From assembly GCA_965249025.1 (NCBI GenBank), contig OZ252215.1, positions 622,600-686,599 on the forward strand: DNA of 64,000 nt, in the 5' to 3' direction. Positions 19,482 to 35,859 of the stretch are shown here, one piece after another. The translations under genes and the position numbers were made by a program. How positions within the stretch are numbered: the stretch's first letter is position 1; each line of letters opens with the position of its first letter. The notes below the pieces were generated by a model, which searched no databases, was not told the origin of the DNA, and saw only the letters and a list, made by a program, of their open reading frames with translations. Source of the stretch: Dehalococcoidia bacterium (GTDB taxonomy: Bacteria; Chloroflexota; Dehalococcoidia; Lucifugimonadales; CAYTFF01).

Positions 19482-19774
19482 CTTAGGAGGAGGATGGGAA
19501 AGATATGACATACATGTAGCACTTTTGGCACAGTCTGTCAATATCCTTAAGTGTAGTGAAAGACTTTACATAAACCCAATAGCAATATCATGTTTCTTAC
19601 TGAGAATGCACTAGATCACGTAATCACATGTGACGCTGCAAACGGAAATGTAGCGAAACAGCTTTTCGGGACCTTCACTATTGAGTCATGGCTCTCCAAA
19701 ATAGTCTTGTTACCCTCAGATTGGAAAATGGCAATTCAACAAATATCTCCCAAAGGATTACCTTTTGGAGCTGA

Positions 19775-19797
19775 GAGACGGGAAAGTCGAACTCCCC
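19775..19797 (-). repeat. Displaced partial copy of the tmRNA 3' end (putative distal att site)
   Basis: GAGACGG-gaa-AGTCGAACTCCCC versus GAGACGG-gggag-AGTCGAACTCCCC at 35509-35533. The 13-bp core is identical (19785-19797 = 35521-35533). Confidence 0.7.
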
Positions 19798-20271: not shown

Positions 20272-21876
20272 ATGATGAGTAAGATAAGTCAAAGGGGGTG
20301 GTTACTTTTGTGGATAGCAGCGTTCACCTTGTTTGCAGCGGCCTGCGCTGGGTCATCCGATGCCCATGGAAGCGGTGAAGACGGCATTGCGAATGAGGCG
20401 TTGACCGAAAGTAGTGCCAGTTCAATCACTAATGAGAACCCAGTCTCATATGACCCTGCTGTGGCCCAGAACGAAGCCTACTGGTACTCACGTTACAACC
20501 TTGGCCACCTAGTAATGAGGTCCGGGATGGGGATTCAATGGATGCCGCCGATGGAAAAGGTTCAAGAAATGATGAAAATGGCCCAAATATCAGCCGGTCC
20601 CTCGAACCCATACCTTGTGGAAGCCATTTACAGTTCAGGAGACCCACACTTGATCCAAGACTTTAACGGAGATGGAACCGATTTCTCGAACTTCCGTTGG
20701 GACCAGGCAAAGATGGACAAAGTAGTGACACCTCAAGCAGTGGCTTACACTATGATCAAGGAAGTTATCTGGGCCAAGTCTTTCGCCAGCGATGTGGAGG
20801 GAGCGAATCCCATGAATCACTTTAGGGCCTTGGTCCTAAGCGCCGAGGCTGCCGCACAAGCAAGGTTTGCCATGATGAATCTCCAGTCATCAGATGGCTT
20901 GCTTATAGCTGGCTGGAGGGATGGTCAGGTAACGAATACCAATGCAACTCCTCTGGATCAGATGGTTATGTTATGGGCGCTATCGGAACTGTCAGACTAT
21001 GCTGGCGGCGACTATAGATGGTACGGAGTACCTCTTACGAAAGAGCAAGCTTTAACCTGGGCAGATGAACTTCTGGTTGCTGTAGGCGAGCATCTGAGGA
21101 CTCGACCGGATTTTCTGACAGGCATGCCGTCTCGAGATCTAGGAGTCGCCCTTGCTGCACTCTCTTCATATGTCGGGTATGCTTAAATCGGTGAAGGCAA
21201 GACATTAGCCATTGAAACATTCATACCACAGTTGACTCTCGAACTTGTCGGCAGAATAGATAACGATGGCCGGCTTGAGACTGAAGGCAACTATAGTCAA
21301 GTTGTTACACAAGCGTCTGCAATCCAGGGACTCGTATTCGCCTTTCACATAACTGCTGAACAAATGCTTCAAGATGCAGTGCTAAACCTCTGGGATCACA
21401 TGGACACTCTGTGGGACGATAACGCCGAAGTTTACGTTCCCTCTCGCGGAGATACCAGCTACCGGTACACGGCTAGGGATGTCGGCGATATAGTGGGAGC
21501 TTTCAATGCTTTGCTTAATGGACTATCCATAGACGTGAGTGAGCGGTTCGCCAAATTCTTCCACTCAGCGGTCAGCGAATCAGGGCTTCAGATAGCTGAG
21601 GGGGAACCTACGGGGGGTGACAAGGATACAGACACTATCCCTGGTCCAATAGCCGCCGGAGGTCCTTTCGGTCAAGGGCCCGTGCTGGCGACAGAGGTCG
21701 TCTATCGCACCTCGTCGAATACATGGGAAGTTATTGACTCGCGATTTACAACAGCTTATGCCATGTCTGCCAATAATCAATTCATGTGGATCGGAACATG
21801 GGCAGGCAAACCTTCGGTCACAGGACATGGAATCCCTAACAACTCGATTTTCGAGGCCTCACTATCTGCTAAATAG
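20272..21876 (+). pseudogene. Secreted lipoprotein of unknown function (helical, possible alpha/alpha barrel) split by one in-frame TAA at 21184-21186
   Basis: ORFs 20272-21186 and 21232-21876 are in the same frame and the 15 codons between them are open. Lipobox AAAC. Met-rich N-terminal region. Confidence 0.7.
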
Positions 21877-22029: not shown

Positions 22030-23130
22030 CTAGCTACTGGTTACGGTGATGTTACCATGCATGCCCGCCTCTTCGTGGCCGGTTATCGTGCAAATCGAGT
22101 CGTAGCTCCCCGCTATAGCGGGGATCAGGTAGAGGTCTGCCTGCTCACCCGGAAAGATCTCGACTGCCCTGAAGTAGGGTGCCTTGATCTCTCCCGAACT
22201 GTCCTGCGCTTTGCGGAACGCCACCGATTGGTAGAATGCCTCTGCGGTGAAGTAGTGTTTCACCGCCCCCACATTGACGATCTCCAGCTTGTAGGGCTTT
22301 CCCACCTCGAATGTGAGGTTCTCTGGCGCGAACGAGAATTCGCCCATCTCGACCCGCACCGTCTGCATTGTATCCCAATCGGCTGCGGAGACAAGATCAG
22401 AGGCATTCTGCACCCAATCGCCGTCTGCCACCGGGACTATGATCGGCGCCGGTGAGACCGGTATGCTACCGGTCACGGTGATGTTACCATGCATACCCGC
22501 CTCTTCGTGGCCGGCTATCGTGCAAATCGAGTCGTAGCTCCCCGGGATAACCGGCACGAAGTACAGGTCAACTTGGTCTCCAGGGAAGACCTCTATCGCC
22601 TTGAAGTAGGGTGCCTTGAATTCTCCCTCAGAGGTTTGTGCTTTGCGGAACGCCACCGATTGGTAGAACGCCTCTGCGGTGAAGTAGTGTTTCACCGCTC
22701 CCACATTGACGATCTCCAGTTTGTAGGGCTTCCCTACCTCGAATGTGAGGTTCTCTGGCGAGAACGAGAACTCGCCCATCTCAACCCGCACCGTCTGCAT
22801 TGTATCCCAATCGGCCGCGGAGACGAAGTCGGACGCGTTCGCCACGTACGTCCCACCCGCGTGCACGTGGCCAGCGTCGGATGTCGTGGTCCCTGGCTGT
22901 CCTGCCAAGCCCTGAGCGCCTGTGGCGCCGATTGGACCGGTGGGACCAACATCACCCTGCAGACCAGCAGGACCGATGGGACCAATATCACCCTGGGGAC
23001 CGGCTAATCCAGCAGGGCCGCCTGCACCCAGGCCACCAGTAGGGCCAGTTTCACCTGTACATGCGGCCAAGGCGACCATTAGAAGTGCCAAGGCACCTGT
23101 ACTCAACAAAACCTGCATCCATTTCTTCAT
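22030..23130 (-). CDS. Lipoprotein with collagen-like stalk and two tandem type-1 (blue) copper cupredoxin domains
   Basis: Lipobox LAAC, (G-X-Y)n run, two near-identical domains (144-aa period), each with KHY...ICTI(A/T)GHEEAGM (His/Cys/His/Met). Start ATG 23130 follows GGAGG. Confidence 0.85.
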   Translation of the reverse strand: MKKWMQVLLSTGALALLMVALAACTGETGPTGGLGAGGPAGLAGPQGDIGPIGPAGLQGDVGPTGPIGATGAQGLAGQPGTTTSDAGHVHAGGTYVANASDFVSAADWDTMQTVRVEMGEFSFSPENLTFEVGKPYKLEIVNVGAVKHYFTAEAFYQSVAFRKAQTSEGEFKAPYFKAIEVFPGDQVDLYFVPVIPGSYDSICTIAGHEEAGMHGNITVTGSIPVSPAPIIVPVADGDWVQNASDLVSAADWDTMQTVRVEMGEFSFAPENLTFEVGKPYKLEIVNVGAVKHYFTAEAFYQSVAFRKAQDSSGEIKAPYFRAVEIFPGEQADLYLIPAIAGSYDSICTITGHEEAGMHGNITVTSS

Positions 23131-23203
23131 CCTAGCCTCCTTTCGAACTGCTTTATTAAGACTGATAACGGCCAATGCGTATTCTTTGTATCATGCAACG
23201 CTG

Positions 23204-24423: not shown

Positions 24424-24455
24424 AAGAGGGGGAGTCTGAGATGACTCCCCCTCTT
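24424..24455 (-). terminator. Intrinsic terminator after the OmpR-family regulator
   Basis: AAGAGGGGGAGTC-tgagat-GACTCCCCCTCTT, followed on the minus strand by CTCTTTCTT. Confidence 0.7.
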
Positions 24456-24477: not shown

Positions 24478-25158
24478 CTACATGCTGCTTGCAAACATAT
24501 ACCCTACTCCTGGAACTGTTGAGATGAACTTGGGGCTTTGCGGATCCTCTTTAATCTTTTGGCGCAGGCGCCAAACTGTAACTCTAAGCACCTCGTGCTC
24601 GCCGACGTACCCGTGCCCCCAGACCTTTTGGAGAAGATCGTCACTAGTAATGGCTCTGCCTGCATTGGTTGAAAGGTAGTGTAGGACTCGGTACTCTGTT
24701 GGAGACAAGCGAACTTCCTGATTCTGCACGGTCACGCGGTGGGTAAGAAAGTCCACCCTTAGGGTTCCGGATGTGAAAGATGTCTGCTCCTGGGTAATCT
24801 CCGCTAATCGAGCCCGTCGTAGAACCGCCTCGACTCTAGCTAGCAACTCCTGTGCGGAGAATGGCTTTACAATGTAGTCATCGGCCCCTAGCCGCAGCCA
24901 TTTCACTTTGTCATCATCGCTGCCCAGAGCGGTGAGCATGATAACGGGAACTGTAGAGAACTCGCGGATGCGGGCGCACACCTCAAAGCCGTCTTGGCCT
25001 GGAAGCTTGATGTCCAAGATCACGAGGTCGATGGGCCGTTGGGCAATGGCGGTAAGCGCCTCCTCGCCGGAACCCTCACAACCAACATGGTAGCCTTCCG
25101 CTTCCAGATTGAACTGGATCAGGCGCAAGTACCTGGGCTCGTCGTCGACCACCAACAC
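24478..25158 (-). CDS. OmpR/PhoB-family response regulator
   Basis: LVVDD, ILDIKLPG, GADDYIVKPF, winged-helix LSPTEY...TVPGVGY. An ATA at 25171-25173 behind GGAGGAGG may be a mutated ATG. Confidence 0.9.
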   Translation of the reverse strand: MLVVDDEPRYLRLIQFNLEAEGYHVGCEGSGEEALTAIAQRPIDLVILDIKLPGQDGFEVCARIREFSTVPVIMLTALGSDDDKVKWLRLGADDYIVKPFSAQELLARVEAVLRRARLAEITQEQTSFTSGTLRVDFLTHRVTVQNQEVRLSPTEYRVLHYLSTNAGRAITSDDLLQKVWGHGYVGEHEVLRVTVWRLRQKIKEDPQSPKFISTVPGVGYMFASSM

Positions 25159-25169
25159 GTATTCGCCGG

Positions 25170-26657
25170 CTATCTCGTACCTCCTCCATCGGGGGACGCC
25201 GACAGACCCTCATAGTCTGTTGCCTCGTCCACAAACCCATCTACGATGGGAAGAGTGAATCGGAACGTGCTGCCCGCGTTCGGGTTGCTCTCCACCCACA
25301 ATTTACCGTCGTGGGACTCGACGATGCCCTTGCAGATAGCAAGGCCGAGGCCGGCGCCACGAATGCCCTTTCGCTGTGAGCTCTCACCACGGTAGAATGC
25401 TTGGAATATCCGTTTCTGCTCGTACGCAACGATGCCGTAGCCCTGATCCCTGATACTGATCACAGCATTTCCGTCTTCGCTTGACACGGTAACGCTGATA
25501 GTCGATGCAGGGTCTGAGTACCTAGCAGCGTTCTCCAACAGGTTGCGGAGAACCTGCTCAATCCTCACTGGGTCAACTAGCACGCCGATCCCAGCGCTAT
25601 CGAGTTCGGTTACAAGCGCATAGCCCCTGTCATGGAGATAGGGCGAGATTTTATGTAGAGCGCCTTCTACGAGTTCTTTCAAGGATATCTCTCACCGACT
25701 CATTTGAAGCCTGCCTGCTTGTAGTCTTGAGGCATCCAGAAGATCATCAATCATCACCTGGAGTTTGCTTGACTCGTCAGAAATGACCCGTAGGAATTCT
25801 TTACTCGTGGTGGCATCCACCTATATATCATCCCTCAGCAGTGTGGAGGCGTATCCTTTGATGAACCCCAGGGGCGTTCGCAGTTCGTGGGATATTGTGG
25901 AGATGAACTCGGCCTTCATCCGATCCAACTCCTGCTGCGCCGCCACCCGAGCCAGCTCACCCCGTTGGCGGTCAATGGTAAGACTGGCTCCTTTGACCAT
26001 CCCTACCAGAATTAAATACATTACCAGCGTGGCAGTCCCGACGATCAACCAACTCCGAAGACGCGCCGCCTGAATCTCTTCTACAAGGGCCTTCGTCTCC
26101 TCGTAGAATTCTACAGCACCTACGATCTCTCCCGTGTTGAACAAACGTAAAGGAGTGTAAGTCTCCTGCAGCCGAGAAAACCATTGCCTCTCGTAGTCGT
26201 TCTCAGGTTCGGATAGATCACTAATGTGAGAAACCGTCTCGCCACGGAGGGCTCCTTGCAATCCACGCCCCACCTGAAAAGTCATACCAACAATCTTTCT
26301 GTGCGGACTGTAGAGGATACGCCCGTTCCGAGACCACACCTTGAACGAAACGATCCTCTGACCCAGTTCAGTTTCGATTAGAAGCCTGTCGAGAGCTTCT
26401 ATTTGATCAGGGCGTAGCTCCCCAGGCTCGCCTAGGTTCTGAAGATGAGGTGACACAGAGCTGGTCACGAAGGAAGCGGTTACCGCCGCCGTGCGAGTCA
26501 TGACACCGCGCTCAATCTGCCTTGTGACCCACCAACCAATGATCAGCAATCCCGTTAGCAAGATGGCAAAGCTCACCAGAGCAAAGCGCTTAGTCAGGCT
26601 GATTTGAGAGAACAGCCTCAACAACCGACTGACTATCACATTGCTTTTCGCAATCAT
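25170..26657 (-). pseudogene. Membrane sensor histidine kinase (HisKA + HATPase) with in-frame TAG (25821-23) and TGA (25692-94)
   Basis: ISHELRTPL H-box, NLLENA, D.G.G and GAGLGL boxes are all in one frame, interrupted by two stops. Confidence 0.85.
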
Positions 26658-26761: not shown

Positions 26762-28213
26762 CTAAGAGAATGAAGTTCCAATTCCTATCAGCCTGTAAAA
26801 CCAACTGCTGATCGCCATGAAGTTTCCGCTAACGAGAAGGACTCCATAGCCAGCAATCAATGTCGCGCTTGCCAGGCCCATCCAGGGTATAACCTTCTCC
26901 ATGCGAAAGAGGAGCGGGAGAACCTTGGCCATAGCTCCAAAGACCAACGGAATGCCCATGCCCAATGAGAAGAGGAAGAGGAGTGTAGCTCCCACCAGCG
27001 GAGACCCGGCCAGTCCTACGTAGAGGACCATCCCAATCAGGACTGCCGAACCGAAGCAGGTCATACATCCGGTGGCAAAGGTCACTCCCACCACCATACT
27101 CTCCCATGGTGAGGTTGTACCACCCTTACGGGCCATCCTGGAAGCGAGCGGCATCTTGCAGACCAGAGGAGCTCTGGCTCTTACGGCGACACGAATCGCC
27201 AGTCCCAAAAGGATGATTCCAGCCCCAACGCTCAAATAGCGCTGCCACAAATAAAATGAGTCCAAGTTGGCCAATTGTTGGGAGCCGTAGCCAATGACAG
27301 CTCCTGCCGATGTATACACGATGGTGAATCCTACGACAAAGAAAAAGGCGGTCTTTACTACTCCTACCCGCGGTCTCAGGCCCTTAGCGGTAGAAGCTTC
27401 TTGCATACTCATACCGGCCATAGTAGGGATGAAGTAAGCCGTTAGCTGAAACAGACAGGGCCACATTGCCGCCAACAGTCCGCCCAACACAGCTAGCACG
27501 GCGACGCCGGACACTGCAGGCACCGGTAGGCCCCTGTTTGGCTGTCCCAGGGCAACATCAGAGCTGGAGTAGTCCTCTGAATACTCCAAAGGCAGCTTCC
27601 ATCTCAAGACATTGCCACTGGATTCGACGCCGTCCGATGCGGTGAACATCATCTCAAAGGTAGTCCCCTGTTCCAAGGCTGAGGAGTCCGCCAACTTGTC
27701 CGCAGAGTAACGTACTACTGTGGAACGGTGGTGAGGGGAATCGGCCATAACTAAGCTCTCAGTAGGCTCCAGCGATTCAGAACCGTTGATCCGCAGGAGA
27801 GGCTGAGGCGGAGTTGGAGGGAGTTCATCGATATGCACAGTCTCCTTTATGTAGAATAAGAGAGATGGCTCGGCCAGGGCGGAAGCGGGTGGCTCTCGCC
27901 TGAGGGCCGAGAAGTACTGAGGAGTCGCAAAAAGAACATCAACTCCTGGTGTTTCGCCATCGTCGACAGGACGCACTCCGTATCGGTTCAGAACACCTAT
28001 CATGTCGCGCCATTGAAGATCAGGCATCACTGCATTGCCAGAGGGAGGAGAGGCAAAGTCGAAATTGAAGATTTGCCCTAATCCAATGACCAAAATTGCG
28101 ACCAGCGGTATTCCAATCAAACCTAGCCACCATTTCCCTCCTCTTGGTAGGAGAGTGCGGAAGCCCCACCCAACCCGTCTAGTAGTGGTCGTCGAATCAG
28201 TGAAGGTGCTCAT
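26762..28213 (-). CDS. CcdA/DsbD-like transmembrane disulfide-exchange protein fused to an N-terminal extracytoplasmic domain
   Basis: MWPCLFQL, FVVGFTIVYTSAG and ATGCMTCFG...LFSLGMGIPL match the CcdA transmembrane core. Confidence 0.75.
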   Translation of the reverse strand: MSTFTDSTTTTRRVGWGFRTLLPRGGKWWLGLIGIPLVAILVIGLGQIFNFDFASPPSGNAVMPDLQWRDMIGVLNRYGVRPVDDGETPGVDVLFATPQYFSALRREPPASALAEPSLLFYIKETVHIDELPPTPPQPLLRINGSESLEPTESLVMADSPHHRSTVVRYSADKLADSSALEQGTTFEMMFTASDGVESSGNVLRWKLPLEYSEDYSSSDVALGQPNRGLPVPAVSGVAVLAVLGGLLAAMWPCLFQLTAYFIPTMAGMSMQEASTAKGLRPRVGVVKTAFFFVVGFTIVYTSAGAVIGYGSQQLANLDSFYLWQRYLSVGAGIILLGLAIRVAVRARAPLVCKMPLASRMARKGGTTSPWESMVVGVTFATGCMTCFGSAVLIGMVLYVGLAGSPLVGATLLFLFSLGMGIPLVFGAMAKVLPLLFRMEKVIPWMGLASATLIAGYGVLLVSGNFMAISSWFYRLIGIGTSFS

Positions 28214-28228
28214 TATATAGACTCCTCT

Positions 28229-29284
28229 CTAATTAGGTAGAAATGCGGCTAAGTGGCTAATAGTAGGAATGTAGATGGCGAGGACGATGGCGACGGCCAG
28301 TGAAAGCCCAATCACCACATTGGCAATTGTAAGTCGAAATAACGGTGAATCCTTGGTGGCCACAGATGCCTCTTCTACCACATCGCTCTTTCTTTCCACA
28401 ATCGATGTACTGCCTCCCGTGACGATGGACAGGGAGGCTAGTCTGAGAGCCTTTGCCATACGCACAGTTAGAACTCCCGACACACCGAGCACGAAGGCTT
28501 TGAACACTATGGTTGCGACATAGTGTGGACCGAAGGGTATGCGCAACATCACGTCCAAATCGAACACTCCCGGCGGCTTTATGGGAGCGCTATAGATAGC
28601 GCTATAGACGCCGCTGGCTGCCAGTAAGAATAGGCTGAAGACAGCAGCAGGGAAGAAAAAGCTTGAGAGTCGTTGGAACACAGGTGGCCTAGAAACTGGA
28701 GGGAGAAACCAGTACGCCACCAGTATCACTGCTGTCATGCCAAACCAGACGATGCCAGCTAAGGTGTGAGATATGCGCACGCCAATAGCCGCGACATCTC
28801 GCCAGTTGAAACTGAAAAAGAGGTCTAGCACCTGCTGACGGACCTCATCAGTGTTAGTCGTTGGACCTATCGGAACCACACTCTCAACGAAACTGACTTC
28901 TCCATCTCCTAGCTCCTCCACCCTGAGAGTCACGTTCCAGGAGCCGAACATTGGGAAGGCAACTTGAGCGGCGTAAAGTCCAGGTTCATTAAGTGGTTCA
29001 AGGAGGACAGGCTCCATTGGTGGACCGCCTCCTTGCCTCTCCGCACTGAGCATGACCTTGGCTTCCTCGACTGGTTCTCGGTCGCCGGTGAACACCACAA
29101 GGACGCGGTATAGACGGCCCAGCGGCTCCTGAGAGTCGGGGGTGAAGGACGAAACCTCAAGGCTTAGCTCCTTCCCATGGGCTTGAACCGCCTGCCCAAT
29201 GGGGGTAACTCCAAGCATCATGAAAAGGACTCCAGTCAGTACGAAGCCTATAATCCAGCGATGTAACATATTTCTAATTCCCAT
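28229..29284 (-). CDS. YtkA/FixH-like Ig domain + CopD-like membrane domain
   Basis: EPGLYAAQVAFPMFGSWNVTL, followed by a TM region with ISHTLAGIVWFG (CopD-type H.LA..W.G) and a C-terminal ISH. Confidence 0.65.
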   Translation of the reverse strand: MGIRNMLHRWIIGFVLTGVLFMMLGVTPIGQAVQAHGKELSLEVSSFTPDSQEPLGRLYRVLVVFTGDREPVEEAKVMLSAERQGGGPPMEPVLLEPLNEPGLYAAQVAFPMFGSWNVTLRVEELGDGEVSFVESVVPIGPTTNTDEVRQQVLDLFFSFNWRDVAAIGVRISHTLAGIVWFGMTAVILVAYWFLPPVSRPPVFQRLSSFFFPAAVFSLFLLAASGVYSAIYSAPIKPPGVFDLDVMLRIPFGPHYVATIVFKAFVLGVSGVLTVRMAKALRLASLSIVTGGSTSIVERKSDVVEEASVATKDSPLFRLTIANVVIGLSLAVAIVLAIYIPTISHLAAFLPN

Positions 29285-29297
29285 AACCCCACGAATC

Positions 29298-29849
29298 TCA
29301 CGGGAAGAACTTCACAATGAACAGGAGGTGTTTTTTGCCTTTCGGCAACTGCACAGTCACGTCCACGGACCAGTCTCCGTACATCAGAAAGGCGAGGGGC
29401 AGGACATAGTGGCCGTCCCCAAGCTTTTGCCCAATTTGGGCGTCAATTCCGTGATCCATAAAGACCATATCGTAAATCAGGTCTACCTCAACGTCGGTGA
29501 CCGGTTGATAATCTTCATTGTTTAGTAAAAAGAGGAGCAGGTCAGTCTGCCAGTCGGGTGGATAAGGAGCGAGGAAAACCTCCGCGGTCTTGTCCTCGCT
29601 CAAGGGAACCCTACCACCATTTCTTATAGCCACAGCTTCTCCATTTTGAACAAAGCCAAGCTGGGCTGAAATAGGATCTATATCTTCTCCTATTGGGCTT
29701 ACCTCTACAGAGACGTTCTGTTGGCTTTGGGGCGTGGCAGATTTGAACTCCACGGAAGGGCCAGTACCAGCACCGCATCCTATTAGCACTAGTGTAGTGC
29801 TAAGCATTAGCATCGTTCCCAGAGTCACCCGTCTTCGTATCATCATCAC
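29298..29849 (-). CDS. Lipoprotein with YtkA/FixH-like domain and Met/His patch
   Basis: Lipobox LIGC, DMVFMDHG, DGHYVLPLAFLMYGDWSVDV. Confidence 0.6.
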   Translation of the reverse strand: MMMIRRRVTLGTMLMLSTTLVLIGCGAGTGPSVEFKSATPQSQQNVSVEVSPIGEDIDPISAQLGFVQNGEAVAIRNGGRVPLSEDKTAEVFLAPYPPDWQTDLLLFLLNNEDYQPVTDVEVDLIYDMVFMDHGIDAQIGQKLGDGHYVLPLAFLMYGDWSVDVTVQLPKGKKHLLFIVKFFP

Positions 29850-29862
29850 ACCTCACACTCCA

Positions 29863-30255
29863 CTAAGGTTGAGTCGCCAGCCATTGGAGATAAGTCGATA
29901 CCGCCTCTACTTTTTCCTGGTTAAGGTTAATGAAATCCATTGCGTCTATAGAATCCAGTGCAAAACGGATGTCACCTGGTGTCTTTCCAAGGATGCTGGG
30001 GCCAATGTTTCCTTTGCCATCGGGGCCATGGCAATATGAGCAGCCTATACCATCTTTTGTTGCGGCATTTTTGAAAATTCTCTCACCAAGTTCAAAGGGC
30101 GTCTCCTCCATTTCGCTACCACTCCCAGGATTTGTCTGGGCTGGTGCCGATGTCGGCGTGGGGTTGGGGTTAGAGCCCGAAGCGGAGCTGCTACCTCCTC
30201 CGCACGCCGCCGCAAGCAATCCGAATATCAACAGCAATGCCATCAAACTGCCCAA
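29863..30255 (-). CDS. Monoheme class I cytochrome c lipoprotein
   Basis: LAAAC lipobox, CSYCH heme motif, distal Met (AMD). Confidence 0.85.
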   Translation of the reverse strand: MGSLMALLLIFGLLAAACGGGSSSASGSNPNPTPTSAPAQTNPGSGSEMEETPFELGERIFKNAATKDGIGCSYCHGPDGKGNIGPSILGKTPGDIRFALDSIDAMDFINLNQEKVEAVSTYLQWLATQP

Positions 30256-30354
30256 TATGTATCGTTTTTACATGCTTTTCCTACCTCTCATCTGCTTCCT
30301 CCGTCGACCTGTGGGCACCCAGCTTTGAAGCTGGGTGCCCACTTCTATACAGAA

Positions 30355-31839
30355 CTACCGGGCTTGAGCTTTTTTAGCCAAAATATCCTGCTGGGCCTGG
30401 AGGGCGCTCCCATGGAGGCCGTTCTGGTCCGCCAGCACTCGGACTGGACAGGCCGAGTTGTACTGCACGAAGGCGCCGTTATGTGTGCTGCCCCCGTTAG
30501 GGCTGGGGATACGAGCCTTCACATAGTCACTAGGGCTGAACTCTCCCCTCGTCTCCCGCTTGGAGAGGTCCAGTATGACCGTCTCGAAGCTGGAGTTGCA
30601 GCTTATCCAAAGCTCGTTGGTCTCTGGGTCTGGGTTCAAGATGCAATGGTCCGCCCGCAGACAGCCTGTGTAGACCTCTCCAAAGGGTCGCGCTCTGCCC
30701 ACCATCCTGGGGTCGACCAGGCCTACGGTGATTCCCTTGTTGTGCGAGCCTTCACCCTTGCCTATGGTGATAATCATGTCCTCTTCCCAGTTCAGGTTGA
30801 GGCCGTATGGCCCTTCCGTGCCTGCCCTGGCAAATTTCACCATCTCCCAGTCGGAGGGGTCTTCTTCGCTCATGTCGATTTTGGCCACTATGCTCTCATG
30901 GCCGCCGGTGTCGTAGGCCGTCTTCCCATCGCCGCTGAAGGCCACAAAGATTGGGCTGCTGTCCTCGATACCGATATTTCGCACGTAGCTCCAGTCCTCG
31001 GTGTCTATGATGGCCACCGTTCCCTGGGCCTCTACGCCGCGAGGCGGCCTAACGCTGTAGAAAAGCCATTTGCCGCTGTGGTCTACAAAGGCCAGGTAGC
31101 CCTCGCCGCGGAGCTCACTGTTAGGCACTGCGCCGACTACCCTGTTGTTGTCGTTGGGGTCCAGAATGTAGGCGCCATGGCGCCAGGAGTAGGCCAGCAC
31201 CCTGTCGTTACCATGATGGTCCACAAAGGACTTGATGTGGTGAGGACGTCCTGGGACCTGGAGGACCTGGGCTAGCTTGCCTGTTCTGGCATTTATAACA
31301 AGGAGCCTGCCAGCCTCTTTGGAACCGCTAAAGGAAGTGCCTGCAGCCGTTGGAATATAAACATACTGGCCATCCGGCGACACGCCAAGTCCATGGGGCT
31401 CGAAGAACTGGCCCTCTACGTCATGGGTCTCCTTGGACTCTTTAGCAGAAGGACCAATGTTGAAGTGGGGCGCCGCCAGGACCTCACGGGTCTTTGCGTC
31501 TATGGCATGGTAGCCGGGCAACGTGACATCGGACGTCAACCCACCGTAGCCGGGACCTTCAGACGCAAAATAGACCAGAGGATGCTTCCCTGCATCCCAA
31601 AGCGCTGGCCCACTGGAGTCGAAGGTCTGAAGTAACCTTACCCCCATCAATTGGGACCACTCGGTATCCCATCCAGTGGGAGCCGCACTTGCGGGCGGCT
31701 CAGGCTGCCAGTTTGCTACCTGAACTATGGATTGTCCCTCACCGCCGCCGCAGGCCGCAGCCAAGATACCGACTAGAGCAATGAGAATTGCTGTAGCGCT
31801 GGCCAGCAGCAGTGGCTTTTTCATAATGTGCGTTTTCAT
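30355..31839 (-). CDS. His/Tyr-rich beta-propeller lipoprotein (YncE/cd1/NosZ-propeller-like fold), function unknown
   Basis: LAAAC lipobox. Repeated blade motifs EPHGLGVSPDG, RPHHIK, GYLAFVDHSG, PIFVAFSGDG, GPYGLNL, ADHCILNPD, STHNGAFV. Start ATG 31839 follows GAAGGGAG. Confidence 0.7.
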   Translation of the reverse strand: MKTHIMKKPLLLASATAILIALVGILAAACGGGEGQSIVQVANWQPEPPASAAPTGWDTEWSQLMGVRLLQTFDSSGPALWDAGKHPLVYFASEGPGYGGLTSDVTLPGYHAIDAKTREVLAAPHFNIGPSAKESKETHDVEGQFFEPHGLGVSPDGQYVYIPTAAGTSFSGSKEAGRLLVINARTGKLAQVLQVPGRPHHIKSFVDHHGNDRVLAYSWRHGAYILDPNDNNRVVGAVPNSELRGEGYLAFVDHSGKWLFYSVRPPRGVEAQGTVAIIDTEDWSYVRNIGIEDSSPIFVAFSGDGKTAYDTGGHESIVAKIDMSEEDPSDWEMVKFARAGTEGPYGLNLNWEEDMIITIGKGEGSHNKGITVGLVDPRMVGRARPFGEVYTGCLRADHCILNPDPETNELWISCNSSFETVILDLSKRETRGEFSPSDYVKARIPSPNGGSTHNGAFVQYNSACPVRVLADQNGLHGSALQAQQDILAKKAQAR

Positions 31840-31924
31840 ACGATATTTTCTCCCTTCACTGTGATTAAGGTTTTTTCCACGTTTTACTCTCATTCATGGG
31901 ACCATCTTTTCACCTCCGTGTGTC

Positions 31925-32311
31925 TCAGCTAAAGTGTTCTGTTCTCTGGTCCAGGAATTCGCTCGCTGAGTGGTGATCATCCTGTAATGCCTCCAACAGT
32001 CCTTCGAGGTCGGTTTGAAGAATGCGCTTCATCCGAAATATCTCTATGCCCGTTTGGTTTAGGTTCAGGGCTATGACCCTTGCTTTGGGGTGTTCCTCCA
32101 ACAATCGAGTAACTATTCCTTCGCCCATTGAGGCATCGCTGGAGTCGAGGATAATTGCGTCAGGAGACAGACACTTAATCTTGGCGGCTGCTTCGGGGGC
32201 ATCTGCCGCCACAATGGAAACTTTAAGGTCATTCAGGTCTTGTAACAGCTTTTGAACTCCGGCCACCAGGAGTGAGTGGTTACTCAGTAAGACGATCTGT
32301 TTAGGTTTCAT
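31925..32311 (-). CDS. Small atypical receiver-like protein
   Basis: IVLLSNHSLLVAGVQKLL...DAIILDSS resembles a NarL receiver without the acidic pocket and without an HTH. Confidence 0.55.
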   Translation of the reverse strand: MKPKQIVLLSNHSLLVAGVQKLLQDLNDLKVSIVAADAPEAAAKIKCLSPDAIILDSSDASMGEGIVTRLLEEHPKARVIALNLNQTGIEIFRMKRILQTDLEGLLEALQDDHHSASEFLDQRTEHFS

Positions 32312-32421
32312 TGGACGACCTCTAAGGAATACTGGGTATGTCTTAGTTACACTCGATACCGTTATGTGAAAGAAATCACAAGAACAGAACACTTGAATTG
32401 GTAGTTTTGACCTACGAAAGA

Positions 32422-32451
32422 AAGTAGGCCCTTAACATAAAGGGCCTACTT
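32422..32451. terminator. Hairpin downstream of the NarL-family regulator
   Basis: AAGTAGGCCCTT-aacata-AAGGGCCTACTT, 12-bp stem. Confidence 0.6.
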
Positions 32452-32487: not shown

Positions 32488-33150
32488 CTATGGGGGTGGC
32501 TTGGTGGTAAACCCGTGCTCCAAAGCCCAACCCACGACCTGTGCTCTGTTTCGGAGGTGCAATTTGCTTAGGATGTTCTTCATGTGGTAGTTGACCGTAT
32601 TCTCAGAGATGTAAAGGGCTGCAGCTATTTCTTTGTTAGTGGCTCCACGCGCCAGTTGCTCAAGCACGTCTTGCTCTCGCTTGGTTAGACCCGCATCCAA
32701 CTCAGAGCCATGTTTCTGTTCCTTAAGCCGGGCGAATTCCTCAAGGAGCTTCTTGGCCAGGCCAGGGGACATAACAGGCTCGCCGCGACCGACACGGTTC
32801 ATTAGGTCTGCGAACTCCTCCTCTCGGAGGTTCTTAAGAAGATAACCTTCGGCGCCGCTCTTGATTGCTTCAAACAGATCTTGCTCGTCGTCGGAGACCG
32901 TTAGAATGATCACTTTGATGTCAGCGGAATCTGCTTTAATGGCTCGTGTTGCCTCCAGACCGTTGGGGCTTGGCATGTTGATGTCCATGAAAACCAGGTC
33001 TGGTTGGAGGTTCTGTGCCATTGAAATGGCCTCCTCTCCATTGCCCGCCTGGCCCACTACCTGTAGGCCCCAGGCCTTGAGGAGACTGGCTAGCCCAGCA
33101 CGAAATAGGGCATGGTCATCTGCTAGTAGTACCCTCATTCCCTCAGCCAT
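32488..33150 (-). CDS. NarL/LuxR-family response regulator
   Basis: LLADDH, FMDINMP, GYLLK, LTKRE...NKEIA...TVNYHMKNILSKL. Confidence 0.92.
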   Translation of the reverse strand: MAEGMRVLLADDHALFRAGLASLLKAWGLQVVGQAGNGEEAISMAQNLQPDLVFMDINMPSPNGLEATRAIKADSADIKVIILTVSDDEQDLFEAIKSGAEGYLLKNLREEEFADLMNRVGRGEPVMSPGLAKKLLEEFARLKEQKHGSELDAGLTKREQDVLEQLARGATNKEIAAALYISENTVNYHMKNILSKLHLRNRAQVVGWALEHGFTTKPPP

Positions 33151-35002
33151 CGTCCTCTCTGTGCAAGAGCGGTACTAGCACCTCTACTGTAGTTCCCTTC
33201 CCCGGAGCGGCATCGATAGCAAGAGTTCCATCCATTGCCTCTGCTCTCTCTCGCATGGTATGAAGGCCAAATCGAGGCCATCCTGTTGATGGGAGTCGCT
33301 TCTGTTCAAACCCTTCGCCATTGTCGGCTATTGTGACTCGAAGTCCGTCTCCAATCATCTCAAAGTTGACAGTAGCGGTGGATGCCCTTGAATGCTTTCT
33401 CACGTTGGTTAGCGCTTCCTGGACTATACGAATCAACTGAATTTCAGCAGAGGGGGTCAATTGGGAGCGCTCCGCATCCGGCGACGCGTTGATATCGACT
33501 TGTATACCGGACATCTCCATGTAGCTTTGAGTGTACTCCCTTAGAGCAGCAAGCAGGCCTTCTTTGCGGCGGGCGGCTATCCTTAGCCCAAGGATACCCT
33601 CGCGAACATCGGCATACAAGTCTCTGGCTATTTCTTCCATCTTCGTGAGCTCCTCATGTGCCTCAACGAACTGCTGGTTAGAGAGAAATTTCTTCACTGC
33701 AATGGTTTGGGTATTGATATAGCCCAACAATTGAGCCATTCCGTCATGCATTTCCCTAGCTATGCGCTCTCGCTCTTGGAGGACCGCTAGGTCTTGAACC
33801 TGTTGGTAGAGGTGAGCATTTTCTATGGCTAGAGCCATCCATTCTCCGATGCTTTCAAGAAGACGAATCTCATCTTGTGAACTTATTGCACTCTCTGAGA
33901 AGGCGGCCAAAGTTAGAACACCAATTACTCTGTTCTTATAGCGTAAAGGCAAGCCGCAAAATGTATGATATCCAGCATCGATTACCCTCTTGCGAAGGAA
34001 GATATCCCTAGTGGGCAGGTCATGTGTCACCAAGGGCTCTTGCGTCTCCGCTACTATGCCCGGTATGCCCTCGCCTTTGCGAAACCGGGTCCGCTCCATG
34101 AAGGACTCCTGATGTTCACCTCGGTGACATCTCATGGTCAGATCTTCGTCGTCTTCCGTAAGCCAGACCTCAGCGCCGTCAGCCGACGTGACATCTATGA
34201 TGGTATCCAGCGTTCTGCCGAGCAATTCGTCCAAGTCAAAGGAAGAGGTGGCTACCTTGCTTACAGCAAGTAATGCAATAAGATCACGGTTTTGTCGTTG
34301 AGACTTTTCGTAGAGGACGGCATTCCTTATGGCCATACCTAACTGGCCGCCGATGCCTTCCAGGAATTCTTGGTCATTGTCGTTAAAATGGCGCTCCTGG
34401 TGAGAGGCGATTGCCAAGATACCATTTACTTCTCCCTCTGACTTCAGAGGCGCGCTCATGAGCGACCTGAACCCTTCGCGTCTGGCAAATTCTACAAGTC
34501 TAGGGTCATTGAAGACGTCTTCAATGATAACTGGCCGACCTGTGCTCACTACCTCTTGGGCGATAGGATCGTCCGCAAGTTTGGCCTTTCGTATCTTACG
34601 CTCCAATTCCTCCGTGAAGCCTCTGTGACAAACTATGGAGTGCTCCTCTTCTTCCAAGTCTACTAGGCAAATTAAACCAGCGTCTACCTTCAAGTTTGAC
34701 AAAACATGATCCAGGCTGGTATTTAGCAGCTCTTGTAGGCGCAATTTAGCGGCTGCCGCCTTAGCTATGTCATTTAACGAAGAAAGCTGGCGATTCTGCT
34801 CGGTGATTCTCCGTTGTAGCTTTGCGATGGACCCAAACATAACGTAAGTGAAGATAATCACCGCAACGGCAATTGCGACATGAACCCCAAAGAAGCCTGG
34901 GACGCTATGCAGCTCTTTAGCGAAAATACTATGTCTCAATAAGTCAACAGATGCCAGAAACAAGATAGGCAGCACTATGGCCAGCTATCTTAGAGCTGAC
35001 AT
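33143..35002 (-). pseudogene. Double-GAF HisKA_3 sensor kinase with an amber stop at codon 6
   Basis: ERERIAREMHD, EALTNVRKH, DNGEG. ATG 35002 reads MSALR*LAIVLPIL (TAG at 34985-87, likely from TGG). Restart at GTG 34975 is possible. Confidence 0.75.
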
Positions 35003-35159: not shown

Positions 35160-35572
35160 CACAGAAGACTGTATGGGCAGACAGAAGAGATACATGGACA
35201 TGGAGCTAGAGATACTGATAGTGCCCGAGGCCAACGCGGCTGAGGAAGCAGGGAAGCTACTATCTAACCGCCTACATTATGGGCTGAGGCCAACCTGGAG
35301 GAGAGACGTAAGCTACTACTCACAATGCTAGACGGGGTCTATGTGGATTCCAAGGAGGAGAGGCCATAGTAGCTATCAGGCCCAAGCCAGCATTCAGGGC
35401 AATCTTTGAGGTAGTAACATCGCGTGAAGAGTCTGAAGTCCTACTCATAAAAGAGGAGCCTCTAGATACGAATCCAGAGGCTGAAGTGGATCCCTTGTGT
35501 TTCTGGTGGAGACGGGGGAGAGTCGAACTCCCCGTCCAGAAGACTCCCCGTTGGGATATGCTACAGGCTTAG
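35160..35572 (+). pseudogene. C-terminal remnant of a site-specific (serine) recombinase overlapping the ssrA 3' end
   Basis: Across two frameshifts reads LEILIVPEANAAEEAGKLL / PTLWAEANLEERRKLLLTMLDGVYVD / IVAIRPKPAFRAIFEV...CFWWRRGRVELP. I recognise this as resembling Dehalococcoidia ssrA-island recombinase C-termini (from memory, not searched). The N-terminal catalytic domain is absent. Confidence 0.65.
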
Positions 35573-35859
35573 TCGGCAATTATTGTCTCGTCTCTAAAGC
35601 CCTCTGCCGACTAAGGGTCCTAAAAACCAGCCGACATCTCTTTGGCCTACCCTATCGGCGTTGGGAGGACCGCACCTCGATCCGTCGGCGCCCTAGCCGC
35701 TCCCTCGAGGACAGGAACGGTAGAACGTAGCTGCCTTTTTAGGCAGCTAGTGCGAGGTTTTTCTCGCCAGTTACTTTTTTTGCCACCTGATTAACGAGGT
35801 AGATGGCACCTCGGCCTGCGATCCCACAAGGCCATCCCCTGTCGAATCCGCGCGTCCCC
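35504..35859 (-). ncRNA. ssrA: tmRNA (transfer-messenger RNA); tag peptide (A)GEKNLALAA* at 35768-35739
   Basis: 5' GGGGACGCGCGGATTCGACAGGGG, 3' GGAGTTCGACTCTCCCCCGTCTCCACCA, resume context GTAACT|GGC, tag ending LAA, upstream TGGTATAAT. Confidence 0.95.

What the first reader, a model, noticed from the sequence alone, without database searches (positions are those of the whole stretch)
26762..31839. Candidate undescribed extracytoplasmic copper/heme redox enzyme system built around a His-lined beta-propeller
Seen: a tightly packed operon of propeller lipoprotein, monoheme cytochrome c, YtkA-like Met/His lipoprotein, YtkA-CopD-like membrane protein and CcdA-like protein, with a tandem cupredoxin downstream and NarL/GAF regulators upstream. 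The propeller's blade-start positions carry His or Tyr (EPHG, PHH, GY, PY, DH, TH), with extra His in GGH and EGSH. It has no CxxCH and no CuA motif. Known: NosZ binds CuZ through seven His, including an HH pair, on the propeller axis; cd1 nitrite reductase uses His/Tyr there. Inference: a stand-alone catalytic propeller with a multinuclear Cu (or heme) site, supplied with Cu by CopD/YtkA-like proteins, kept reduced by CcdA, and wired to cytochrome c and cupredoxin in trans. A role in N-oxide or O2 chemistry is plausible, but the substrate is unknown.
Basis: partly seen in the sequence, partly recalled or inferred. Interest (0 to 1): 0.82.

Follow-up and report, generated by a model that had tools for sequence, protein, structure and literature searches.

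The report
Unstudied copper-type propeller redox operon
This operon encodes a secreted beta-propeller with seven conserved histidines, its own cytochrome c and copper-handling helpers; the family is widespread in uncultured bacteria and some archaea, appears unstudied, is most likely a new copper redox enzyme, and its substrate is unknown.

Summary
Five co-directional genes on the minus strand (26762-31839) encode a lipoprotein propeller, a monoheme cytochrome c, a YtkA-like Met/His lipoprotein, a YtkA+4TM protein and a DsbD_TM (CcdA-like) protein with a new His-bearing N-terminal domain.

Seven of the propeller's 18 His are 91-100% conserved in 198 homologues with a median identity of 46%. 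These are H104, H167, H218, H219, H384, H416 and H471. K379, E381, D415, Y266 and Y363 are also conserved.

Synteny holds across many phyla, including Thaumarchaeota. In 38 loci with enough flank, 29 have the DsbD_TM/His-domain protein, 27 have a cytochrome c or cupredoxin (often fused), and 17 have Sco1/PCuAC or YtkA.

The family is not NosZ and not clade III L-NosZ (20 bits against a cut-off of 700; hhalign 24%). It is not recognisably thiocyanate dehydrogenase.

The best reading is a new extracytoplasmic copper oxidoreductase built on NosZ/TcDH logic. A nitrogen-oxide substrate is not supported by gene co-occurrence. "CopD-like" is unsupported, and the "GGH" His is not conserved. I could not measure whether the His converge in 3D.

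The module sits in a 15.7-kb stretch flanked by a repeat of the tmRNA gene's 3' end.

The parts
33143..34975 (-). Membrane sensor kinase, GAF-GAF-HisKA_3-HATPase
   Evidence: Pfam. 42% identical to the kinase at the same position in L006. A GAF kinase or NarL regulator lies next to the propeller in about 12-13 loci.
32488..33150 (-). NarL-family response regulator; overlaps the kinase gene by 8 nt
   Evidence: Pfam Response_reg+GerE. NarL is the best NCBIfam hit. 57% identical to the L006 neighbour.
32422..32451 (-). Terminator-like hairpin (12-bp stem) after the regulator pair
31925..32392 (-). Small receiver-like protein (155 aa), probably the first gene of the propeller transcript
   Evidence: Weak receiver-domain hits. 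A 142-aa receiver sits at the same place before a distant cupredoxin-fused relative (L092).
30355..31839 (-). Lipoprotein beta-propeller (the ORF can extend to 31893). Conserved residues: H104, H167, H218, H219, H384, H416, H471, K379, E381, D245, D415, Y266, Y363 and the C411/C432 pair.
29863..30255 (-). Monoheme cytochrome c lipoprotein (CSYCH), the presumed redox partner
   Evidence: A homologous cytochrome c is adjacent or fused to the propeller in most loci.
29298..29849 (-). YtkA-like lipoprotein with conserved M128, M131, H133 and M156 (a Cu(I)-type Met/His motif)
   Evidence: Pfam YtkA, E 3.7e-4. Conservation in 14 homologues.
28229..29284 (-). YtkA domain followed by about four TM helices; the TM part is unassigned and not detectably CopD
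   Evidence: Pfam YtkA, E 3.5e-8. No CopD hit at E<=5. Conserved H36, H173, H344.
26762..28213 (-). Membrane protein: periplasmic beta-sandwich domain (E124, H127, H161, H162) plus a DsbD_TM domain (C253, C352, C383xxC386)
   Evidence: It is the most constant neighbour: this protein or its domains occur in 29 of 38 loci.
25170..26657 (-). CusS-like sensor kinase gene broken by two in-frame stops (TAG 25821-25823, TGA 25692-25694)
24478..25158 (-). OmpR-family response regulator, followed by a 13-bp-stem terminator-like hairpin at 24424-24455
22030..23175 (-). Lipoprotein with a collagen-like stalk and two type-1 cupredoxin domains (432-nt internal duplication); CopI-like by NCBIfam
19773..19797 (.). 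25-nt direct repeat of the tmRNA gene's 3' end (the other copy is at 35509-35533); possible island border
35504..35859 (-). tmRNA gene (ssrA), the other border of the 15.7-kb stretch that holds the whole copper module

Best explanation
The propeller is the catalytic subunit of an unstudied extracytoplasmic copper oxidoreductase.

**Proposed mechanism (inferred).**
- It is exported unfolded as a lipoprotein.
- Outside the cell it receives copper from the YtkA-like proteins. In Proteobacteria, Sco1 and PCuAC take this role.
- The membrane protein that joins a His-bearing beta-sandwich to a DsbD_TM domain helps. It would either deliver copper or deliver reducing power.
- The conserved His, with K379, E381, D415 and two Tyr, would hold a cluster of two to four copper ions. 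The site would be at the mouth of the central channel.
- Electrons pass between that cluster and the operon's own cytochrome c. In other lineages the partner is a type-1 cupredoxin, often fused to the propeller.
- The GAF kinase and NarL regulator control expression.

**Shown:** residue conservation, gene linkage, domain fusions, and the absence of membership in known families.

**Inferred:** the metal, the geometry of the site, the direction of electron flow and the substrate.

I lean slightly towards reduction of a small oxidant (N2O, NO or a reactive oxygen species) when oxygen is low. Oxidation of a small substrate, as in thiocyanate dehydrogenase, is nearly as likely.
For: **Active-site-like conservation.**
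- 7 of 18 His are 91-100% conserved in 198 homologues (28-100% identity); the other His are not.
- An identical 17-residue polar pattern occurs in 155 of 198.
- Relatives at 20-30% identity still keep H167, H218, H219, H416, H471, K379 and D415.

**Fold and position.**
- The AF2 model is a confident propeller (pLDDT 83.8, pTM 0.84).
- The conserved His and Tyr sit at the start of the innermost strand of successive blades.
- hhalign places two of them at the blade position of a NosZ CuZ ligand, though at low probability.

**Redox partner.**
- Cytochrome c, or cytochrome c plus a cupredoxin-like domain, is adjacent or fused in 27 of 38 loci.
- Distant relatives carry a C-terminal amicyanin-like type-1 cupredoxin.
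- Archaeal loci have a cupredoxin-like gene in that position instead.

**Copper handling.**
- Sco1/PCuAC are present in 12 of 38 loci and YtkA-like genes in 5 of 38.
- The YtkA-like protein has a conserved Met/His motif.
- The same module (DsbD_TM, YtkA, GAF kinase, NarL, small receiver) flanks relatives of only about 27-31% identity.

**Export.** A lipobox/Sec-type signal means the cofactor must be inserted outside the cytoplasm.
Against: - No metal has been measured.
- Foldseek finds only generic propellers (YVTN, YncE, hydrazine synthase beta, cd1 NirS, NosZ), all with query-normalised TM below 0.5.
- Blade number (7 or 8) is unresolved.
- Some family members stand alone, without helper genes (L007).
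- No neighbour points to a substrate.
- Co-occurrence with NosZ or NirK is weak.
- The regulators are uninformative.
- In this window the operon lies beside CopI-like and CusS-like genes, so a role in copper homeostasis is not excluded.
Confidence: 0.55

Rival explanations
1. It is specifically a nitrous-oxide (or nitric-oxide) reductase. This would be a fourth type, unrelated in sequence to NosZ. It would have a His-ligated copper cluster fed directly by cytochrome c or a type-1 cupredoxin instead of CuA.
For: - It has seven conserved His including an HH pair, plus a conserved Lys and Glu. The NosZ alignment made here also has seven invariant propeller His including an HH pair.
- The architecture of a propeller followed by a C-terminal cupredoxin and/or cytochrome c recurs in fused relatives.
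- 45 of 50 carrier genomes lack canonical NosZ.
- FNR/Dnr-type boxes lie upstream in 5 of 67 loci, where about 2 are expected.
Against: - The host genome has no NirK, so that copper nitrite reductase route to N-oxides is absent; NirS and Nor were not searched.
- Only about 10-13 of 51 carrier genomes have NirK.
- No nosDFYL or other sulfur-delivery genes are nearby.
- The order of His along the blades differs from NosZ.
- Most hosts belong to lineages that I recall as aerobic, including ammonia-oxidising archaea, which are not known to consume N2O (my own knowledge).
Confidence: 0.15
2. It is a dehydrogenase of the thiocyanate-dehydrogenase type. A small reduced substrate (a sulfur, nitrogen or metal species) is oxidised at the copper site. 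The electrons go to cytochrome c or cupredoxin and on to the aerobic chain.
For: - TcDH is a seven-bladed propeller with three Cu in its central tunnel. It has essential His and Lys residues and a cytochrome c552 acceptor, and copper-transport genes lie beside it (PMC9456337, PMC6504805).
- The present family has the same ingredients.
- It occurs mostly in lineages that I recall as aerobic, with high-potential carriers (list of hosts).
Against: - Profile similarity to TcDH-like PDB chains (8q9x, 8yu5; identified as TcDH from memory) is only E 0.04 over one blade.
- TcDH is exported by Tat, whereas this family has Sec/lipoprotein signals.
- No cyanase, sulfur-carrier or other substrate-linked gene is nearby.
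Confidence: 0.22
3. It is not an enzyme. It is a metal-binding propeller used for copper buffering, delivery or resistance. This would be analogous to the zinc chaperone AztD, or to non-catalytic YncE/YVTN propellers.
For: - In this window it lies beside CopI-like cupredoxins and a CusS/OmpR-type pair.
- AztD shows that His-bearing periplasmic propellers can be metallochaperones (PMC6689063, abstract listed).
- The best fold matches are non-catalytic propellers.
Against: - Fusion to cytochrome c and to type-1 cupredoxins in many lineages argues for electron transfer.
- Other loci do not sit beside CopA, Cus or multicopper-oxidase genes.
- The invariant Lys/Glu/Asp/Arg/Tyr set looks catalytic.
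Confidence: 0.1
4. The channel holds a tetrapyrrole or another organic cofactor, as in cd1 nitrite reductase, NirN or NirF, and not copper.
For: - cd1 NirS chains are among the top Foldseek hits.
- NirF appears in the profile search.
- The blade count could be eight.
- Some relatives give weak Cytochrom_D1 Pfam hits.
Against: - No haem d1 or PQQ biosynthesis genes were seen in the locus contexts that were annotated.
- The helper genes are copper chaperones.
- Pfam Cytochrom_D1 scores are below or only marginally above (one relative) the family cut-off.
Confidence: 0.04

Closest known systems
Nitrous-oxide reductase NosZ, clades I and II (including cytochrome c-bearing forms)
   Same: Both are secreted beta-propellers with seven conserved His including an HH pair. 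Both are partnered with cupredoxin or cytochrome c electron carriers. Both are metallated outside the cytoplasm. The architecture of a propeller followed by a C-terminal cupredoxin or cytochrome c is seen in fused relatives.
   Different: There is no detectable homology (hhalign at most 24%; no NosZ Pfam or TIGRFAM hit). There is no CuA domain and no nosDFYL/nosR genes. The His are distributed differently over the blades. The helpers are YtkA/Sco1/PCuAC and a DsbD_TM protein.
Clade III lactonase-type N2O reductase (L-NosZ, NCBIfam NF052460)
   Same: Both are YVTN/lactonase-like propellers that databases label YncE or lactonase. Both lack the canonical nos accessory genes.
   Different: The score is 20 bits against a cut-off of 700. 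The same model scores about 180 bits on canonical NosZ, including its CuA end. Clade III clusters carry b-type cytochromes and ABC/MacB transporters (PMC13685413), not cytochrome c, DsbD_TM and YtkA.
Thiocyanate dehydrogenase (TcDH)
   Same: Both are propellers whose conserved His and Lys line the central tunnel. TcDH holds three Cu there. Both have a dedicated cytochrome c partner and copper-transport genes nearby (PMC9456337, PMC6504805).
   Different: Sequence similarity is marginal (E 0.04). TcDH uses Tat export, whereas this family uses Sec/lipoprotein signals. Hosts and neighbours differ. The HH-then-H order that I recall for TcDH is not colinear with this family (from memory, not tested).
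cd1 nitrite reductase d1 domain, NirN and NirF
   Same: These are among the best fold matches, with His and Tyr lining a central cofactor pocket.
   Different: They bind haem d1. Pfam scores are below or only marginally above the cut-off. No d1 biosynthesis genes are present. The linked helpers are copper chaperones.
YncE / archaeal YVTN surface-layer propellers / AztD
   Same: These are the closest by sequence profile and fold (1l0q E 2.6e-9; YncE TM 0.72 normalised to the target).
   Different: Those proteins are not known to have a redox function (my own knowledge). The conserved His/Lys/Glu set and the linked electron carriers were established here only for this family; they were not looked for in YncE, YVTN or AztD.

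Membership tests
L-NosZ (clade III N2O reductase, NF052460) | Scores above the curated HMM cut-off (700 bits) | tested here: not met
   The window protein scores 20 bits. The best among 40 relatives is E 2.9e-19. No region of the genome scores above the cut-off.
L-NosZ (clade III N2O reductase, NF052460) | CuA-type cupredoxin end (model positions about 447-479 match CuA proteins) | tested here: not met
   The window protein has no CxxxCxxxH motif and ends after the last blade. The model's C-terminal end matches CuA-type regions of canonical NosZ.
L-NosZ (clade III N2O reductase, NF052460) | Gene cluster with b-type cytochromes and ABC/MacB transporter components | tested here: not met
   The cluster here has cytochrome c, YtkA-like proteins and DsbD_TM. 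The clade III cluster is described in PMC13685413.
NosZ clades I/II (TIGR04246, TIGR04244) | Sequence homology of the propeller | tested here: not met
   hhalign of A1 against 18 NosZ gives at most 24% probability over 37 columns. There are no Pfam or NCBIfam NosZ hits.
NosZ clades I/II (TIGR04246, TIGR04244) | Seven His ligands of CuZ, with an HH pair | tested here: inconclusive
   Seven conserved His including an HH pair are present. Their order over the blades differs from the NosZ invariants H110, H111, H159, H330, H397, H438 and H499. The geometry was not measurable.
NosZ clades I/II (TIGR04246, TIGR04244) | nosDFYL/nosR maturation genes | tested here: not met
   None was seen in the locus contexts that were annotated with Pfam. 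The survey of 73 loci used a fixed reference set that held no nos accessory proteins, so it could not have found them.
Thiocyanate dehydrogenase | Sequence similarity to solved TcDH chains | tested here: not met
   Only E 0.04 over about 55 residues to 8q9x/8yu5. I identify those entries as TcDH from memory.
Thiocyanate dehydrogenase | Trinuclear copper site in the central tunnel | not testable with these tools
   This needs coordinates with metals, or experiment.
cd1 NirS / NirN / NirF (PF02239) | Pfam Cytochrom_D1 above the gathering score, plus haem d1 genes | tested here: not met
   The window protein has no hit. Relatives score 20-26 bits against a cut-off of 25.5. No d1 genes are nearby.
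CopD copper importer (claimed for the 351-aa protein) | Pfam CopD match in the TM region | tested here: not met
   No CopD hit up to E 5.
DsbD/CcdA thiol-disulfide transporters (PF02683) | DsbD_TM domain with conserved TM cysteines | tested here: met
   Pfam E 1.3e-10. C253 is invariant in a 'PC' motif, together with C383xxC386; C352 is conserved in at least 90% of the sequences. The added N-terminal His domain is not part of the known family.

The most novel reading that the evidence does not exclude
The family would be a new class of copper-cluster enzyme, sequence-unrelated to NosZ and TcDH, that reduces N2O or NO (or carries out another nitrogen-cycle step). A previously unknown pathway (His-domain/DsbD_TM protein plus YtkA or Sco1/PCuAC) would assemble it. 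It is carried by abundant sediment, groundwater and marine lineages (Woeseiaceae, SAR202, Chloroflexota, Trueperaceae) and by some Nitrosopumilales. If so, it would be an uncounted sink or source in nitrogen-gas budgets.
Probability: 0.15. Interest if true: 0.92.

Novelty: new variant of a known kind. Interest (0 to 1): 0.72.

Why it matters
Only two structurally characterised enzyme families place a multinuclear copper site in a propeller channel: NosZ (clade III L-NosZ is a divergent branch of it) and thiocyanate dehydrogenase. Both were important for greenhouse-gas or sulfur and nitrogen chemistry.

A third, sequence-unrelated family would open a new cuproenzyme to study. It has its own electron carriers and a different set of maturation genes. 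It is found in at least 87 loci of species-representative genomes, spanning many bacterial phyla and Thaumarchaeota. It might also add an unrecognised reaction to sediment, groundwater and ocean element cycles.

The His-domain/DsbD_TM protein is itself a new candidate factor for copper-site assembly.

Tried and rejected
**Known families that were tested and rejected.**
- L-NosZ membership is rejected (20 against 700 bits). The second propeller in proteobacterial clusters is not L-NosZ either (51 bits).
- Homology to canonical NosZ is rejected.
- A specific PDB fold match was not found; only generic propellers came up. TcDH is not among the top hits.
- The CopD assignment is rejected.
- DosS/DevS-type haem GAF sensing has no support. 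No GAF-domain match to DevS or DosT was found, and the NreA hit is far below its cut-off.

**Tests that gave weak or no signal.**
- A link to denitrification by co-occurrence is weak.
- FNR-type boxes show only mild enrichment, confined to alpha- and beta-proteobacteria.
- Neighbour genes that might point to a substrate were uninformative.
- The fold of the His-domain/DsbD_TM protein has no significant PDB match. The best, non-significant, hit is the H. pylori copper-resistance protein CrdA, E 0.09.
- A blade-HMM count of repeats recovered only the six blades it was trained on, so 7 or 8 blades stays open.

**Things that were unavailable.**
- The L-NosZ paper (He et al. 2025) and the TcDH PNAS paper are not held.
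- Model coordinates are not exposed to the Python box, so no His-His distances could be measured.

Full report
**1. What is in the window**

On the minus strand, 26762-31893 holds five tightly spaced ORFs.
- A 512-aa propeller. The protein collection's copy is 494 aa and starts at M19, which is 31839.
- A 130-aa cytochrome c with CSYCH.
- A 183-aa YtkA-like protein.
- A 351-aa protein with a YtkA domain followed by hydrophobic helices.
- A 483-aa protein with a DsbD_TM domain.

The propeller, the cytochrome c and the 183-aa YtkA-like protein start with lipobox-type signals; the 351-aa protein starts with a hydrophobic signal or anchor (sequence). Pfam and NCBIfam confirm the cytochrome c, YtkA (twice) and DsbD_TM assignments. 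They find no family for the propeller.

Upstream lie a GAF-GAF-HisKA_3 kinase, a NarL regulator, a strong terminator-like hairpin and a small receiver-like gene. Downstream lie a CusS-like kinase, an OmpR regulator, a second strong hairpin, a receiver and a tandem type-1 cupredoxin on a collagen-like stalk. No strong terminator-like site lies between 32392 and 24478. The transcript may therefore run from the small receiver to the OmpR gene.

**2. The propeller family**

The word-indexed search found 493 proteins at E<=1e-3 among the 8000 candidates scored. An exhaustive profile search against 50%-identity cluster representatives gave 4123 hits at E<=1e-3, 407 at 1e-10 and 94 at 1e-30. Where sources give a name, it is only 'YncE family', 'WD40 repeat', 'c-type cytochrome' or 'hypothetical'.

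In 198 non-identical homologues (28-100% identical, median 46%), seven of the 18 His of the window protein are conserved:

| Residue | Conserved |
|---|---|
| H104 | 91% |
| H167 | 100% |
| H218 | 99.5% |
| H219 | 98.5% |
| H384 | 95% |
| H416 | 100% |
| H471 | 99% |

E165, D245, Y266, Y363, K379, E381, N385, R413, D415, N433, Y478 and D489 are at 93-99%. One 17-residue pattern is identical in 155 of 198 sequences.

C411 and C432 are either both present (174 sequences) or both absent (24), and never single. This is the signature of a disulfide.

Relatives at 20-30% identity still keep H167, H218, H219, H416, H471, K379 and D415.

**3. Structure**

The AF2 model is confident (pLDDT 83.8, pTM 0.84) and all-beta. 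Six blades are clear sequence repeats. The remaining 120 or so residues close the ring, so the count is seven or possibly eight. YncE, which I recall as seven-bladed, superposes best (TM 0.72 normalised to the target). The d1 domain of cd1 nitrite reductase, which I recall as eight-bladed, superposes less well.

H167, H218/H219, Y266, P314, Y363, D415/H416 and H471 all fall at the first residues of the innermost strand of successive blades, within one register position. K379-G-E381-x-x-H384 lies in a loop between two strands of one blade. From general propeller topology, these positions ring one mouth of the central channel. That step is an inference.

Foldseek against the PDB gives only generic propellers: YVTN surface-layer protein, hydrazine synthase beta, cd1 NirS, YncE and NosZ. 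E-values are about 1e-13 to 1e-11 and the query-normalised TM is below 0.5.

**4. Not a member of the known copper propellers**

- The best NCBIfam hit is the clade III L-NosZ model, at only 20 bits against a cut-off of 700.
- The same model scores about 180 bits on canonical NosZ of Myxococcota, over positions 166-479. Canonical NosZ is therefore far closer to L-NosZ than this family is.
- hhalign of the family against 18 NosZ sequences gives at most 24% probability over a single blade. Two of the three weak alignments nonetheless put H218/H219 and H471 at the blade position of the CuZ ligand equivalent to H159.
- A family profile hits TcDH-like PDB chains only at E 0.04.
- Clade III clusters contain b-type cytochromes and ABC/MacB transporters (PMC13685413). 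This cluster does not.

**5. Conserved neighbourhood**

A scan of one genome per species found 87 loci. The hosts include Chloroflexota (Dehalococcoidia, Anaerolineae, Limnocylindria, SAR202), Acidimicrobiia, Trueperaceae, Woeseiaceae, Arenicellaceae, Porticoccaceae and Alpha-, Beta- and 'Delta'-proteobacteria. They also include Myxococcales, Vicinamibacterales, Fraserbacteria, Acetothermia and three Thaumarchaeota/Nitrosopumilales MAGs. Nearly all are MAGs. One is an isolate (Rhodobacteraceae bacterium Alg231_30).

With my own ORF calls and BLAST labels, two gene orders recur.
- Chloroflexota: GAF kinase, NarL, propeller, cytochrome c, YtkA-like, YtkA+TM, His-domain/DsbD_TM.
- Proteobacteria: propeller, cytochrome c with a cupredoxin-like domain (often fused to the propeller), His-domain/DsbD_TM, a second YVTN propeller, then the copper chaperones Sco1 and PCuAC (order varies) and sometimes an esterase (seen in three loci).

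Counts among the 38 loci with at least 4.5 kb downstream:

| Neighbour | Loci |
|---|---|
| DsbD_TM / His-domain protein | 29 |
| Electron carrier (adjacent or fused) | 27 |
| Sco1/PCuAC or YtkA | 17 |

Archaeal loci replace the cytochrome c with a small cupredoxin-like protein carrying H...C-x4-C-x2-H. Trueperaceae fuse the His domain to a cupredoxin instead of to DsbD_TM.

Relatives of only about 27-31% identity carry a C-terminal amicyanin-like type-1 site (C-x2-H-x2-M). They keep the same neighbours: GAF kinase, NarL, small receiver, DsbD_TM and YtkA.

The YtkA-like lipoprotein conserves M128, M131, H133 and M156. YtkA/CtaK of Bacillus and PCuAC/Sco1 are copper chaperones for CuA assembly (my own knowledge).

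The DsbD_TM protein conserves E124, H127, H161 and H162 in a beta-sandwich N-domain. It also conserves C253, C352 and C383xxC386 in the membrane part. Its fold has no significant PDB match.

**6. Function**

The most economical reading has four supports:
- an invariant polar constellation at a propeller channel;
- obligatory association with one-electron carriers, including fusion to them;
- copper-chaperone genes of two different kinds in different phyla;
- Sec/lipoprotein export.

Together they point to an extracytoplasmic copper oxidoreductase built on the same logic as NosZ and TcDH.

Nothing identifies the substrate.
- The host genome has no NosZ and no NirK.
- 5 of 50 other carrier genomes have NosZ, and about 10-13 of 51 have NirK.
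- Flanking genes are unrelated transporters and enzymes.
- FNR/Dnr-type boxes occur upstream in 5 of 67 loci, all alpha- or beta-proteobacterial, where about 2 are expected.
- The GAF kinase resembles NarX/NarQ only in its kinase core and shows no match to haem-binding DevS GAF domains.

I therefore keep the direction of catalysis open. I lean slightly towards a reductase.

**7. Setting in this genome**

A tmRNA gene lies at 35504-35859. A 25-nt copy of its 3' end, matching at 21 of 25 positions, lies at 19773-19797. The 15.7 kb between them holds the whole copper module. Only 3 of 60 genomes of the same order have a homologue, at 35-43% identity. Both facts fit horizontal acquisition.

Two accessory genes of this stretch are broken. 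The CusS-like kinase has two in-frame stops. A Met-rich lipoprotein gene has one. The propeller operon itself is intact.

**8. Earlier notes of this scan**

Other agents described what appears to be the same family in other genomes. I treated these notes as leads. I tested the FNR link and found it only partly true. I found the archaeal carriers independently.

**9. Limits**

The claims about the metal and the mechanism are inferences.

Noticed in passing
window 19773-19797 and 35509-35533; tmRNA at 35504-35859: A 25-nt direct repeat (21 of 25 positions match) of the tmRNA gene's 3' end brackets 15.7 kb. That stretch contains the propeller operon, both two-component systems, the tandem cupredoxin and a Met-rich lipoprotein gene. 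It looks like an island inserted at ssrA. I did not look for an integrase.
   Followed up: partly
window 25170-26657 (-): The CusS-like sensor kinase reading frame continues through two in-frame stops (TAG 25821-25823, TGA 25692-25694). It is probably a pseudogene or carries sequencing errors. Its OmpR partner is intact.
   Followed up: yes
window 20272-21876 (+): A lipoprotein ORF of about 530 aa with a Met-rich segment is split by a single in-frame stop near 21184-21186. Neither half has a Pfam or NCBIfam family.
   Followed up: partly
window 22030-23175 (-): The cupredoxin lipoprotein has a collagen-like G-X-Y stalk and two type-1 domains from a 432-nt internal duplication (86% identical). 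Its best NCBIfam hits are copper-resistance CopI models, far below their cut-offs.
   Followed up: partly
loci L004, L028, L030, L031 and others (cytochrome c partner); proteins P0104, P0121: The proteobacterial partner is a cytochrome c joined to a cupredoxin-fold domain. That domain has lost the type-1 His/Met ligands and carries a conserved Cys, usually as CxDC. Limnocylindria versions keep a normal H...C..H site. The role of the CxxC form is unknown: copper chaperone, or target of DsbD.
   Followed up: partly
L065, L068, L073 (Thaumarchaeota/Nitrosopumilales MAGs): The archaeal loci keep the order propeller, small cupredoxin-like protein (H...C-x4-C-x2-H), His-domain/DsbD_TM. The propellers there lack the C411/C432 pair.
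   Followed up: partly
L027, L061; also L012/L022, L048/L058, L067/L077: Several genomes carry two or three paralogues of the propeller, some in tandem. This hints at diversification of function.
   Followed up: no
L006 18063-18407: A cytochrome P460 gene lies about 7 kb downstream of the propeller-cytochrome c fusion in one Chloroflexi MAG. It was seen only once.
   Followed up: no
L004, L047, L055: A PF00756 'putative esterase' gene follows Sco1 at the end of some proteobacterial clusters.
   Followed up: no
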